Source of the DNA: the human T2T-CHM13v2.0 reference genome, Homo sapiens
Assembly: GCF_009914755.1 (NCBI RefSeq)
Contig: NC_060943.1
Length of the DNA stretch: 64,000 nt
Direction: 5' to 3' (one strand)
Positions 8,055 to 58,082 of this stretch are shown here, one piece after another (position 1 is the first letter of the stretch; each line of letters begins with the position of its first letter). A model generated the notes under the pieces. The model ran no database searches. It worked only from the letters and a program-made list of their open reading frames with translations, and had not been told where the DNA came from. A program made the translations under genes and the position numbers.

Positions 8055-8127
8055 GTGGCTGGGTCTCATTTTCCTCTTTATTGGTTTGTGCCACCCAACA
8101 TCATACGATCTGTCATCAGCACCACAG
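8055..8127 (+). pseudogene. Dead 3' half of the first (CYP4F8/CYP4F3B-type) 145-nt alternative exon inside the pseudogene
   Basis: Reads WLGLIFLFIGLCHP-(1-nt deletion)-NIIRSVISTT followed by a GT donor, versus CYP4F8 WLGPITPIINLCHPDIVRSVINTS. Downstream intron 8436-8530 matches 57750-57845. Confidence 0.85.
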
Positions 8128-9529
8128 GTGCTCACTCAGAACACCTGGAAGTGGGTGCTATGGCAGTGTCCAAAGCCTGTGAGCCCCTTCTTGCCCAGCT
8201 TATGTGTTGATCCTGTAGGACCCAAGGTCCCCGTGGCTCTGGACGCCCTTGGTCATCTTTTATTTCTTTCATTTATTTGCCAATCTCCATCCTAGGGATC
8301 CTTGGAGAGACTCAGTTGAGGTTCTACCTTGGAGGCACCCCCAATCTTGGGGCCACAGAACTAGACTGAGACACTCCACATCCTGTGTGGTCAGGGCTGG
8401 CTTGAAGGAGAGATGGACTGTAGGACCCCTGAGGGGAATCAGGGTTTTTGCCAATGGGGCAGGCAGGCAGGCTTCCTGGAGGAGGGGTTTGTGGAAGTGG
8501 GTCTGGAATGATGAGTAGGAATTTTTTTAAGCAAAGAAGAGAAAGAGAAAGATAATTTCATGTGGAGGTTGGGCCAACTCGAAGACTTGGAGGTGAGAGC
8601 AAGCACCTGGCTTTTGAGCAGCAAGAAAGAGCTTGGTGCCACCAGAACAATTAGGATGAGAGGCAGAAGAAAGAGGGAGGGGAGGAGATTGATTCTGAGG
8701 ACAATGGGGAGCCCTGGAGGGTGTGTGAACAGGAGAGGGGCAATATCAGCTGACTGGCTCCTTCCGTTGCCCCACCTGGTTTCTCTCCCTTTTTATCAAG
8801 CTCCTTTCTATAGCAACCCTTGCAGAAGTATCTGCAATTCAGGTTTTGCTTCTAGAGAGCCCACACTAAGACAGGGCCTTATGATTCTCCAGTCATTCCT
8901 CTCCCACTGACCTGCTACCTCTGCTCTTGTTCTCTGACTGGCTTCTACCCATTTTCTTCCACTTCCTTCTGGATCTCTTCTGGGCATCTCCTTCAGTCTT
9001 TCCCAGCTGGCTCCAGCCTGGGCACAGTTGTGGGAGTGATGGGAGTATGAGACAGAACATTCTCCCATGAACTCAAATTCAGGGCTATCCTTGGGGTGGG
9101 ATGTGGAGCCTGGTCTGGGGGTGGTGCAGCCAGGCTTGGGAGAAGGGGCTGTGTCTACATCTTCCCCCTGCTAACTTGCTGCAAAGCTGGGGGTACCTGT
9201 CTAGAGCTAGGGGCAGGAGGCTGTGCTGGGACTAGGGGACAGGAGAGAAAGTTCAATGGACTGAGATTCATTATGAATTTGGGATAAACAGCAAGTGGGG
9301 TGAATGGTCAAGTGTTGGTGGGGAGAGACAGGGAGAGGGATGGAGAGTTGGACTTGGGAGAAACAGTGATAGGGAAAAAGATGCTCACACAGAGAAAGAG
9401 AGAGACAGTGAGAGACAGAGTGAGGGAGAGAGAGGGGAGAGGGAGAGAAAGACACAGAGAAAGTGACACATAAACAGAAAGTAAAAGAAACACATAGACA
9501 CACATATCTAAATCTGTCATTGATCATAT

Positions 9530-10655
9530 CTGTCATCTATGTAGCCATCACTCATACATCTCTCTCATCTATACCTGTCTCTCTTATCTCTCTATCCATC
9601 TATCCTATTTATCATCTATCGATCTGTCACCTACCTTTCTCTTTCTCTCATCTATCTGTCTATCGTATTATCTACCTACCTACCTACCTATCCATCCATC
9701 CATCCTGCCTGTGCATCCATTCATCCTTCTATCTATCCTATCTATCTATCTATCTATCTATCTAGCTATCTATCTATCTATCTATCTAATCTATCATCTA
9801 TCCATCCATCCATCTTATCTGTGCATCCATACATCAATCCATCCATCTATCCTGTTATCTACCTACCTACCTACTTATATACCTACCTCCTACCTACCTA
9901 CCTACATATCCGTCCATCCCTCCTATCTGTGCATCCATCCATGTATCCTATCTATCTATCTATCTATCTATCTATCTATCTATCTATCTACTTTTTTTTT
10001 TTCAAGATGGGGTCTCGCTGTGTCACCCAGGCTGGAGTGCAGTGGCGTGATCTTGGCTCACTGCAACCTCCACGTCCTGAGTTCAAGTGATTCTCCTGCC
10101 TCAGCCTCCCGAGAAGCTGGGACTACAGGCATGCGCCACCAGACCCGGCTAATTTTTGTATTTTTAGTAGAGACAGGGGGGTTTCACCATATTGGTCAGG
10201 GTGGTCTTGAACTCATGACCTCGTGATCCACCCACCTCAGCCTCCCAAAGTGCTGGGAATACAGGCATGAACCACCGCACCTGGCCTATCTATCTATCTT
10301 CTATCTATCTGCTTGTATATCTACCGACTGACCAACCTACCTACCCATTTATCCATCCATCCATCCAGCGATCCATCCATCCATCCTATCTGTGTGTCCA
10401 TCTGTCCATTTAATCTATCTATCTATCTATCTATCTATCTATCTATCTATCTATCTATCTAATCTATCTATCTATCATCTCCCTCCCTCCCTCCCCACCT
10501 ACCTACCAATCCATCCATGCATCCACCCATCCTATCTACGGGTCCATCCAACCATCTATCTTATTATCTATCTGTCTGTCTATCTATCTATCTATCTATC
10601 TATCTATCTATCTATCTATCTATCCATCCATCCATCCATCATCTACATATCTATC
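9530..10655. repeat. Compound (TCTA)n/(TCCA)n/(CCTA)n microsatellite field interrupted by a minus-strand Alu (~9992-10286)
   Basis: Tetranucleotide runs directly visible. Confidence 0.95.
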
Positions 10656-57242: not shown

Positions 57243-57387
57243 GTCACTCCCACAGAGGAGGGCTTGAGGGTCCTGACCCAGCTGGTGGCCACCTACCCCC
57301 AGGGCTTTGTGAGGTGGTTGGGCCCCATCACTCCCATCATCAACTTGTGCCACCCTGACATCGTCCGATCTGTCATCAATACCTCAG
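57243..57387 (+). CDS. CYP4F8: CYP4F8 exon 3 (145 nt)
   Basis: VTPTEEGLRVLTQLVATYPQGFVRWLGPITPIINLCHPDIVRSVINTS, AG/GT boundaries. Confidence 0.96.
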
Positions 57388-57925
57388 GTACTCCTGCAGA
57401 GCTTGTGGTGGTGGGCACAGGAGAACATTGGAGGGCTTCTAGATCTCATCCCCAAAGCTTCTGTGCAGCTCTTGTAGTACTCAGCCCCTTCCTTCCTGCT
57501 TCTCTCTCAGCCACCTTCCTCTTTCCTTCCTGTAGTCACCAACCCCAACCTCAGTGTCTTTTCTCTCTGCTGCCATCTTCCCCACCTCCGTGTTGTTCTG
57601 GGAACCACTGGGGCCCCGAGAAGCCTTAATCCAAGGCCCTGTCCTGGAGGAATCCCCAAACTTGAAGAGATGGAGCAGTACAGAGACATCCCCAACTTCA
57701 TGGGGTTCAGAATGGGCCAGGAGGAGATAGGCTGTGACAGAGCATAGGAGAACAAGGTTTCTACTGGGGCAGGCTGGAAGGCTTCCTGGAGGAGGAGTAG
57801 CAGGAGCTGGGTGTGGAACGATGAGTGATAATTTTTTTTTTAAAGCAGGGGCAGGGTGATGCAGTGGGCATTGTTAGTATTCAAGGCTCCGGGCCAGGCT
57901 TGGCATTGGCCTTGTCCTTCTGCAG

Positions 57926-58082
57926 GCCCAGAGCAAGGACAAGAAGATGAGAAGGAGTTGTGGTTGGTGGAAGATCTAGGCTGCTATTTCCATGACATTC
58001 ACCTCTTGTGGGTCGATTCCTTCTAATCCCATCCTGTGGCACTTCCACCATATGCTCATTGCCCTCTTGCTCCAGGCCCCAG
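57926..58082 (+). pseudogene. Dead second (CYP4F3A-type) alternative exon in CYP4F8 intron 3
   Basis: From 57946 reads DEKELWLVEDLGCYFHDIHLLWVDSF, then a 1-nt insertion (TAA), then PILWHFHHMLIALLLQAP; aligns to the pseudogene exon 10858-11002. Donor GT>GA at 58083-58084; acceptor CAG intact. Confidence 0.85.

What the first reader, a model, noticed from the sequence alone, without database searches (positions are those of the whole stretch)
8055..58082. Reciprocal loss of a mutually exclusive exon pair: two neighbouring CYP4F genes each fixed the opposite splice form
Established: CYP4F3 switches substrate specificity by splicing one of two tandem 145-nt exons (CYP4F3B/liver vs CYP4F3A/myeloid). 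Seen here: both genes carry both exons in the same order. In the pseudogene the first is destroyed (8055-8127, 5' half gone, frameshift) and the second is intact (10858-11002, MRGNEEDMRLMEDLGHYFRDVQLWWLGSFYPVLHLVHPTFTAPVLQAS). In CYP4F8 the first is used (57243-57387) and the second is dead (57926-58082). Flanking introns confirm positional homology (8436-8530 ~ 57750-57845; 11050-11160 ~ 58130-58240). Inference: an ancestral splice switch was partitioned between duplicates, and the duplicate holding the second form was later lost.
Basis: partly seen in the sequence, partly recalled or inferred. Interest (0 to 1): 0.8.

Follow-up and report, generated by a model that had tools for sequence, protein, structure and literature searches.

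The report
Third CYP4F swap exon, human-dead
The human CYP4F gene cluster carries three, not two, ancient tandem copies of one 145-base exon, and the middle copy survives intact only in the pseudogene CYP4F23P, whose counterparts in other primates and in mustelids are predicted to use it.

Summary
One identification is wrong. The second exon (B: 10858-11002 in CYP4F23P, 57926-58082 in CYP4F8) is not the CYP4F3A exon. CYP4F3 has its own dead B copy between exon 3 (A) and its true exon 4, a third type C. B and C peptides are about 32% identical.

B is a real coding exon. Full-length 524-aa predicted P450s of orangutan, siamang and gelada, and predicted P450s of mustelids, contain it. Spliced through B, human CYP4F23P reads 524 codons with one stop and at least one broken acceptor. 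So it is a lightly damaged, B-using gene.

All 8 other human B copies lack the GT donor, and 7 of them have A at +2. Each also has a stop or indel. This favours one early silencing of B over a reciprocal loss between the two neighbours. CYP4F8 groups with CYP4F23P in its 3' exons but not around A and B.

Verdict: complementary exon retention is real, it is three-way, and the tie to the CYP4F3 switch is mistaken. I found no mention of a third exon in print.

The parts
10858..11002 (+). B-type 145-nt exon of CYP4F23P. It is intact, encodes residues 67-114, and is absent from the RefSeq pseudogene exon list.
   Evidence: Open frame with AG acceptor and GT donor. 83-85% aa identity to the same segment of 524-aa P450 models of siamang, orangutan and gelada, and 72-74% to mustelid models.
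8055..8127 (+). Remnant of the A-type exon in CYP4F23P: the 3' 72 nt, with a 1-nt deletion and the GT donor kept.
   Evidence: Alignment to 8 other A exons. 0 of 1000 shuffles reach its score against the CYP4F8 A exon. It falls in the A group of the exon tree.
7960..8054 (+). Alu-like repeat tail plus poly(A) that replaces the 5' half of the A exon.
   Evidence: It matches other dispersed repeat copies in the window (60694-60770 with 7967-8044 at 84.6%). The name 'Alu' is recalled.
57243..57387 (+). A-type exon, the coding exon used by CYP4F8.
   Evidence: Hub annotation. 76-84% nt identity to A exons of 7 other CYP4F copies.
57926..58082 (+). Dead B-type exon in CYP4F8.
   Evidence: 11-nt and 1-nt insertions, and a GA donor in place of GT. 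tblastn meets a TAA stop. 86.8% identical to the B copy at chr19:16.13 Mb and 70-71% to the CYP4F23P B exon.
3108..3305 (+). First coding exon of CYP4F23P, with the only in-frame stop of the B-spliced reading (TGA, codon 61, at 3288-3290).
   Evidence: The orangutan model has W at this position.
15689..15690 (+). Splice acceptor of the 271-nt CYP4F23P exon, changed from AG to GG.
   Evidence: The six other copies aligned from that exon's first base, and the chr8 fragment, show AG at this site. The 16.13 Mb copy aligns only from base 79, so its boundary is extrapolated.
22651..22715 (+). 65-nt CYP4F23P coding exon missing from the RefSeq pseudogene exon list.
   Evidence: The frame closes to 524 codons only when this exon is included.
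58409..58418 (+). Junction in CYP4F8 where the stretch that carries exon C in CYP4F3 is absent. It lies close to where CYP4F8's nearest relative changes from other copies to CYP4F23P.
   Evidence: nhmmer with the CYP4F3 intron: positions 2-329 and 2002-2324 match, and 330-2001 are absent. Segment identities.

Best explanation
The non-CYP4F22 part of the CYP4F cluster descends from a gene with three tandem, homologous, 145-nt, same-phase exons (order A-B-C). Each encodes residues 67-114, the segment that sets substrate preference in CYP4F3.

Because 145 is not a multiple of three, only transcripts with exactly one copy stay in frame. Splice-competent copies therefore behave as mutually exclusive exons (inference).

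The paralogues kept different copies:
- CYP4F8, CYP4F12 and the copy at 16.06 Mb use A. Their B is dead and C is deleted.
- CYP4F3 uses A or C, and its B is dead.
- The copy at 16.02 Mb (probably CYP4F2) keeps A and an open C.
- CYP4F23 uses B. Its A is broken and no C is detectable.

Human CYP4F23P is a lightly damaged copy of that B-using gene. Humans therefore have no working B-type exon, while other primates and mustelids are predicted to have one.

B was most likely silenced once, by loss of its GT donor, in the ancestor of the 5' parts of all A-using copies. CYP4F8's likeness to CYP4F23P in its 3' half would then come from later exchange between neighbours.
For: Three exon types.
- tblastn with the A, B and C peptides finds A and B in 9 of 9 CYP4F copies that cover this region. 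It finds C only in CYP4F3 and the 16.02 Mb copy, and a single exon in CYP4F22.
- Exon trees separate the types. On DNA: A 75/97, B 93/90, C 98/98. On protein: B 94/100, A 79/91.

C is CYP4F3A exon 4. The paper's residue pairs (SS69-70, EE71-72, LL74-75, CC88-89, WW90-91; PMC12784423, passages) fit the C peptide and not B. C occurs in 64 proteins at E <= 1, of 65 candidates scored, from primates to opossum.

B is coding.
- 4 of 4 candidates and 11 of 177 candidates contain it. They include 524-aa models from three primates and several mustelid models.
- The orangutan model aligns to every CYP4F23P exon at 81-98%, against 60-83% to CYP4F8.
- The B-spliced human reading is 524 codons with one stop.
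- A whole-genome protein search found no other open, full-length B copy in this human genome.

Single silencing of B. The donor is GT only in CYP4F23P; the other 8 copies have GA (6), GG (1) or CA (1). Their stops and indels differ between subgroups. In the B+flank tree CYP4F23P lies outside the other eight.

C deletion. The roughly 932-nt C-bearing stretch is missing at the same junction, within 3 nt, in three copies. CYP4F23P keeps 66 nt beyond that junction.
Against: - No transcript data were available. Use of B rests on predicted gene models and on conservation of the open frame.
- Finding only intact B exons in a protein database is partly ascertainment.
- The CYP4F23P B exon is no closer to the dead copies than its flanks are. 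Mean p-distance is 0.308 for the exon and 0.346 for the flanks, or about 0.32 without one badly aligned copy. This test shows no purifying selection.
- The primate B-type proteins diverge fast: human to orangutan is 93% outside B and 85% inside it.
- The 3' exons put CYP4F23P and CYP4F8 as sisters (99/98). A CYP4F23P+CYP4F8 clade is not rejected in the B flank either (p-AU 0.078). A pairwise reciprocal loss with a parallel donor change therefore stays possible.
- Outside the variable exon, mustelid B-type proteins are nearer to C-type CYP4F3 (82-84%) than to primate B-type proteins (78%). Orthology of the B-using genes across orders is therefore not shown.
- Ancestral alternative splicing of A, B and C is inferred, not observed.
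Confidence: 0.7

Rival explanations
1. The CYP4F3-type two-exon switch (exon 3/exon 4) existed in the common ancestor of CYP4F23 and CYP4F8. After that one duplication each neighbour lost the opposite exon.
For: - CYP4F23P and CYP4F8 are sisters in the 3' exons (99/98) and share a 614-nt intron match that no other copy shows.
- The retention pattern is complementary: A is broken and B intact in one gene, A is used and B dead in the other.
- B+C group against A in the exon trees (95/94 and 88/89).
- A CYP4F23P+CYP4F8 clade in the B flank is not rejected (p-AU 0.078).
Against: - The second exon is B, not CYP4F3 exon 4. CYP4F3 holds a separate dead B between its exons 3 and 4, and the B and C peptides are about 32% identical.
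- CYP4F8's B shares the lost GT donor with the 7 other A-using copies. It is 86.8% identical to the 16.13 Mb copy and only 70-71% to CYP4F23P's B.
- In the B+flank tree CYP4F8 pairs with the 16.13 Mb copy (89/95) and CYP4F23P lies outside all others.
Confidence: 0.12
2. The B exon in CYP4F23P is an old dead exon copy, like the other eight, that stayed open by chance. CYP4F23 really used exon A, as the RefSeq pseudogene model implies.
For: - The RefSeq curated model lists the A remnant (8056-8127) and omits B (hub table).
- The exon-versus-flank distance test shows no constraint on B.
Against: - 8 of 8 other B copies have lost the donor and carry stops or indels.
- CYP4F23P's B keeps AG, GT and 48 open codons.
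- Orthologous 524-aa models in three primates contain B, not A.
- Mustelid models contain B as well.
- With B, the human reading closes to 524 codons with one stop.
Confidence: 0.03
3. A, B and C were never alternatively spliced in one gene. Paralogous genes with already diverged exons exchanged segments by unequal recombination, which stacked the exons in tandem. Each gene always used one exon.
For: - The cluster shows mosaic histories: CYP4F8's 5' and 3' parts have different nearest relatives.
- Gene bodies look homogenised within orders.
Against: - The same A-B order and spacing (0.54-0.69 kb) occurs in 8 of the 9 copies. In CYP4F23P the gap is widened by inserted repeats.
- The same C-bearing stretch or its deletion scar follows B. 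The stack therefore predates the family's expansion.
- CYP4F3 demonstrably splices two of the three alternatively (PMC12784423).
Confidence: 0.15

Closest known systems
CYP4F3 exon 3 / exon 4 mutually exclusive splicing (CYP4F3B / CYP4F3A)
   Same: Same gene family, same 145-nt exon slot, same phase, and the same protein segment (residues 67-114). That segment lies on the substrate access channel (PMC12784423, passages). The window's A exons are orthologous to exon 3.
   Different: The window's second exon is not exon 4. It is a third homologous exon, B. In CYP4F3 itself B lies dead between exons 3 and 4. No alternative splicing that involves B has been shown.
Splice isoform separation of mutually exclusive homologous exons after gene duplication (Abascal, Tress and Valencia 2015, PMC4494069)
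   Same: Paralogues retain different members of an ancestral set of homologous exons. That paper lists 11 such cases. It also lists CYP4F2 and CYP4F3 as paralogues that both keep the pair (sections read).
   Different: Here there are three exon types. The partition runs across a tandem family of about 9 copies, and the B-keeping member is a pseudogene in human. The paper does not mention a third CYP4F exon or CYP4F23P (2 occurrences of 'CYP4F', both in table 2).
Predicted 'cytochrome P450 4F6(-like)' and '4F3-like' proteins of mustelids, and '4F2-like' / '4F3-like' proteins of orangutan, siamang and gelada
   Same: They contain the B-type segment at 72-85% identity to the window's exon and are full-length P450s (PF00067 precomputed).
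   Different: They are intact, whereas the human copy has a stop and splice lesions. Outside the B exon the mustelid proteins are no closer to the primate ones than to CYP4F3. The names are NCBI's automatic ones.

Membership tests
CYP4F3A-type exon (CYP4F3 exon 4) | Residue pairs SS69-70, EE71-72, LL74-75, CC88-89 and WW90-91, as described for CYP4F3A. | tested here: not met
   The window B peptide has GN, EE, MR, QL and WW at those places, so only EE and WW fit. The C exon at L040:4989-5132 fits all five.
CYP4F3A-type exon (CYP4F3 exon 4) | Positional orthology with CYP4F3 exon 4. | tested here: not met
   The window's B aligns at 74% nt to a dead copy at L040 about 3848-3992. That copy lies between exon 3 (3177-3321) and exon 4 (4989-5133). 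No C remnant was found in CYP4F23P or CYP4F8.
Tandem mutually exclusive homologous exons | Adjacent exons of equal length and phase with homologous peptides. | tested here: met
   A, B and C are each 145 nt and begin at codon position 1. They share the W-x-G...HP core at about 30% identity.
Tandem mutually exclusive homologous exons | Transcripts that include exactly one of the exons, in alternation. | not testable with these tools
   No RNA data. This is known for A/C in CYP4F3 (PMC12784423). For B there are only constitutive use in predicted models and the frame argument.
Splice isoform separation after gene duplication | Each duplicate retains a different ancestral homologous exon and has lost the other. 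| tested here: met
   CYP4F23P has B intact and A truncated. CYP4F8 has A in use and B dead.
Splice isoform separation after gene duplication | Both exons were functional in the gene that duplicated. | tested here: inconclusive
   All 8 other B copies lack the GT donor, and the B+flank tree puts CYP4F23P outside them. Both suggest that B died before the A-using genes multiplied. The 3' exons make CYP4F8 and CYP4F23P sisters. The AU test does not reject either arrangement in the B flank.
Lightly damaged (unitary-type) pseudogene | Few disabling lesions, and an intact orthologue in related species. | tested here: met
   One TGA, one AG-to-GG acceptor, one further possible acceptor change and one heme-loop G-to-V change. 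Intact 524-aa models exist in three primates. Whether those models are expressed was not tested.

The most novel reading that the evidence does not exclude
The ancestral eutherian CYP4F gene had a three-way mutually exclusive exon cluster (A/B/C) for its substrate-channel segment. The family then parcelled the three forms out among paralogues, and humans have lost the whole B-type class of CYP4F enzyme that other primates and carnivores keep. CYP4F3's celebrated two-exon switch would be the remnant of a three-way one, with the third exon still visible, dead, inside CYP4F3.
Probability: 0.45. Interest if true: 0.65.

Novelty: new variant of a known kind. Interest (0 to 1): 0.55.

Why it matters
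[quoted passage not shown] The swapped segment sets the preference for leukotriene B4 or arachidonic acid.

A third natural version of that segment would give P450 biochemists a ready-made variant to test for substrate preference. It is dead in CYP4F3, apparently in use in other mammals, and still intact in a human pseudogene.

It would also give students of exon duplication a three-way case of splice-form partition inside a tandem gene family.

It corrects the exon model of CYP4F23P. The curated model takes the broken A remnant and omits the real B exon and a 65-nt exon.

It also suggests that humans lack an enzyme class that model species may have. This matters when CYP4F pharmacology is carried over from animals.

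Tried and rejected
- **C remnants.** I looked for exon C remnants in CYP4F23P, CYP4F8 and the other copies with blastn, tblastn, nhmmer and a shuffle test. None were found. The 254-nt filler in CYP4F23P is no better than shuffles (36 of 300 reach its score).
- **Constraint on B.** The exon-versus-flank distance test showed no signal.
- **Rest of each paralogue.** Gene trees therefore rest on three exons (521 nt) and on short intron segments.
- **Whole-region MAFFT alignment.** It aligned CYP4F23P poorly where repeats are inserted, so I replaced it with segment-wise blastn and trees.
- **ESM Atlas search with the B peptide.** No usable hit.
- **Literature.** Eight full-text searches in all. None turned up a third CYP4F exon or a discussion of CYP4F23P's exon structure. 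One search was swamped by 'CYP4F2*3'.
- **Rodent genes.** Whether rodent CYP4F6/Cyp4f16-type genes use B could not be checked.
- **A-containing isoforms.** I could not see whether the primate or mustelid genes also have A-containing isoforms. The 'isoform X1/X2' labels hint at alternatives.
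Full report
**Setting.** The window is T2T-CHM13 chr19:15686001-15750000. It holds the pseudogene CYP4F23P and the 5' two-thirds of CYP4F8. CYP4F3 lies about 16 kb beyond the window's end.

**1. The observation**

- In CYP4F23P, 8055-8127 is the 3' 72 nt of an A-type exon. 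It has a 1-nt deletion and an intact GT donor.
- Its 5' half is replaced by an Alu-like repeat tail and poly(A) at 7960-8054. The name 'Alu' is recalled.
- 10858-11002 is a 145-nt exon with an AG acceptor, a GT donor and 48 open codons.
- In CYP4F8, 57243-57387 is the annotated exon.
- 57926-58082 is a decayed copy. It has 11-nt and 1-nt insertions and GA in place of the GT donor, and tblastn meets a TAA stop.

The flanking intron matches are real: 81% with E 9e-14, and 68% over 487 nt with E 6e-41. In 1000 dinucleotide shuffles each, none reached the observed local score for the A/A, B/B or either intron pair. A and B are not alike as DNA (z -0.9 and 2.3). They are alike only as protein, at about 30%.

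**2. There are three exon types, not two**

I searched the whole genome and then nine 8-10 kb stretches of the cluster with the exon peptides.

- Every CYP4F copy that covers this region has an A exon. These are CYP4F23P, CYP4F8, CYP4F3, CYP4F12, four further chr19 copies at 15.90, 16.02, 16.06 and 16.13 Mb, and a chr8 fragment.
- Each also has a B copy downstream of A. In eight of the nine it lies 0.54-0.69 kb downstream. In CYP4F23P the gap is widened by inserted repeats.
- CYP4F3 has a B copy too, with three in-frame stops. It lies between its A exon (chr19:15769177-15769321) and a third homologous exon, C (chr19:15770989-15771133).
- C is open, has AG/GT, and is only about 32% identical to the window's B peptide.

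A 2025 paper describes CYP4F3A, the exon 4 form, as having SS at 69-70, EE at 71-72, LL at 74-75, CC at 88-89 and WW at 90-91 (PMC12784423, passages read). The C peptide fits all five pairs. The window's B peptide fits only EE and WW. So C is CYP4F3 exon 4, and the window's second exon is something else.

C is old and well kept. It appears in 64 proteins at E <= 1, of 65 candidates scored. These come from primates, rabbit, carnivores, bats, artiodactyls, moles, an elephant shrew and an opossum (72%).

Among the human copies, only CYP4F3 and the 16.02 Mb copy have C. The 16.02 Mb copy differs from CYP4F3 by 3% in exons and is probably CYP4F2. That name is partly recalled, but it agrees with Abascal et al. 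2015, who list CYP4F2 and CYP4F3 as sharing the exon pair (PMC4494069, table 2). CYP4F22 has a single exon of this kind within the 10 kb examined.

**3. Exon trees**

On DNA I used 21 exon copies, with the CYP4F22 exon as outgroup. Exons group by type, not by gene: A 75/97, B 93/90, C 98/98. B+C together stand against A at 95/94.

On protein I added primate, mustelid, cat and opossum segments. B scores 94/100, A 79/91, and B+C 88/89.

10858-11002 groups with 57926-58082, and 8055-8127 groups with 57243-57387. B is nearer to C than to A, but a long branch separates B from C, and B has its own orthologue inside CYP4F3. The tool warned that long branches meet at the B+C node.

**4. B is a real coding exon, and CYP4F23P is a lightly damaged gene**

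- A protein search with the B peptide returned 4 of 4 candidates. One was a 110-aa read-through ORF. The other three were 524-aa P450 models from siamang, orangutan and gelada at 83-85% identity; the gelada cluster has 75 members.
- A profile of four B peptides returned 11 of 177 candidates and added mustelid models at 72-74%. NCBI names these '4F6', '4F6-like' or '4F3-like'.
- The orangutan model aligns to every CYP4F23P exon at 81-98%, against 60-83% to CYP4F8.
- Spliced through B, and through a 65-nt exon at 22651-22715 that the RefSeq model omits, the human sequence reads 524 codons. It has one stop (TGA, codon 61, at 3288-3290) and one AG-to-GG acceptor at 15689-15690. It also has 'gg' before the last exon, which I could not compare with paralogues, and a G-to-V change in the heme loop.
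- At the 15689-15690 acceptor, the six copies aligned from the exon's first base and the chr8 fragment show AG. The 16.13 Mb copy aligns only from base 79.
- The human reading is 93% identical to the orangutan model outside B and 85% inside it.
- The whole-genome search found no other open, full-length B copy.

The curated pseudogene model lists the broken A remnant and leaves out B. It was presumably built on an A-type parent.

**5. When was B lost in the other genes?**

- Only CYP4F23P has GT at the B donor. The other eight copies have GA (6), GG (1) or CA (1). Seven of the eight therefore share A at +2.
- Their stops and indels differ between subgroups.
- In a tree of B plus its flanks, CYP4F23P lies outside the other eight, and CYP4F8 pairs with the 16.13 Mb copy (89/95). 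Their B copies are 86.8% identical, against 70-71% for CYP4F8 and CYP4F23P.

This pattern fits one early loss of the donor followed by independent decay.

Against that, three 3' exons (521 nt) make CYP4F23P and CYP4F8 sisters (99/98). The two also share a 614-nt intron match that no other copy has. The change of nearest relative falls near 58409-58418, where the C-bearing stretch is missing from CYP4F8.

AU tests give the following (groups named after seeing the trees):
- A CYP4F23P+CYP4F8 clade in the B flank is not rejected (p 0.078).
- A clade of CYP4F8 and the 16.13 Mb copy in the 3' exons is rejected (p 0.019).

I read CYP4F8 as a probable mosaic, with a 5' part from an A-using lineage and a 3' part shared with its neighbour. 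This is suggested, not proven.

Gene bodies also look homogenised within orders. Mustelid B-type proteins are 82-84% identical to C-type CYP4F3 but 78% identical to primate B-type proteins outside the variable exon.

**6. The C-bearing stretch**

About 932 nt of the CYP4F3 intron, with C inside, is missing at the same junction (within 3 nt) in the 16.06 Mb, 15.90 Mb and CYP4F12 copies. CYP4F23P keeps 66 nt beyond that junction. Larger gaps occur in CYP4F8, CYP4F23P and the 16.13 Mb copy. This looks like deletion of C in those copies rather than insertion in CYP4F3.

**7. Results against my reading**

- The CYP4F23P B exon is as far from the dead copies as its flanks are (0.308 against 0.346, or about 0.32 without one badly aligned copy). 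That test gives no sign of purifying selection.
- The primate B-type proteins diverge fast.
- Use of B rests on predicted models, and a protein database can only show intact exons.
- No RNA evidence was available, so alternation of B with A or C in any gene is inferred. The inference rests on the shared tandem layout, on known A/C alternation in CYP4F3, and on the fact that 145 nt is not a multiple of three.

**8. Known or new?**

Known:
- The A/C switch in CYP4F3 (PMC12784423 and PMC12380495, passages).
- Its retention in CYP4F2 (PMC4494069, table 2).
- Splice isoform separation as a process (same paper, sections read).
- CYP4F23P as a pseudogene. Kawashima and Satta 2014 place its loss among those of the 'primate or hominoid stem' (PMC4076195, section 14 read). 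That fits poorly with intact orangutan and siamang models.

None of my searches turned up a third homologous exon, its dead copy inside CYP4F3, or CYP4F23's use of it. The library lacks most subscription journals, including the original CYP4F3 gene papers. I did not open any supplements.

**Verdict.** It is wrong on the identity of the exon and probably on the timing. I class the corrected finding as a new variant of a known kind, of moderate interest.

Noticed in passing
window 3005-23812 (CYP4F23P): The RefSeq curated pseudogene model lists the broken A remnant (8056-8127). It omits the intact B exon (10858-11002) and a 65-nt exon (22651-22715). With those two changes the gene reads 524 codons with a single stop.
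   Followed up: yes
L043 (chr19:16020001-16030000, minus strand); C exon starts at chr19:16025109: The copy at 16.02 Mb, probably CYP4F2, keeps an open C-type exon with AG/GT. It is 85% identical in peptide to CYP4F3 exon 4. This agrees with Abascal et al. 2015 listing CYP4F2 as sharing the exon pair.
   Followed up: partly
L044, L042, L041 (copies at 16.06 Mb, 15.90 Mb and CYP4F12): The same stretch of about 932 nt that carries exon C in CYP4F3 is missing at the same junction (within 3 nt) in all three copies. This suggests one shared deletion, or conversion among them.
   Followed up: partly
window 57243-64000 (CYP4F8): CYP4F8 looks mosaic. Around exons A and B it is nearest to the copy at 16.13 Mb. 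From about 58420 onward it is nearest to its neighbour CYP4F23P, including a 614-nt intron match (61581-62344) that no other copy shows.
   Followed up: partly
L047 (chr8:43814001-43824000): A CYP4F fragment on chr8 carries decayed A and B copies in the same order, and pieces of other exons out of order. It looks like a transposed segment of the cluster.
   Followed up: no
L042 (chr19:15897001-15907000, minus strand): The copy at 15.90 Mb is a near-twin of CYP4F12 (3% apart in exons). Its A exon is open, but no match to the first coding exon was found in the stretch fetched.
   Followed up: no
window 10858-11002: The human B peptide has S where all other A, B, C and CYP4F22 peptides examined have the P of a W-x-G-P motif, apart from one R-P variant in orangutan. 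It also has T where the other primates have A. Both changes fit relaxed constraint after the gene died.
   Followed up: partly
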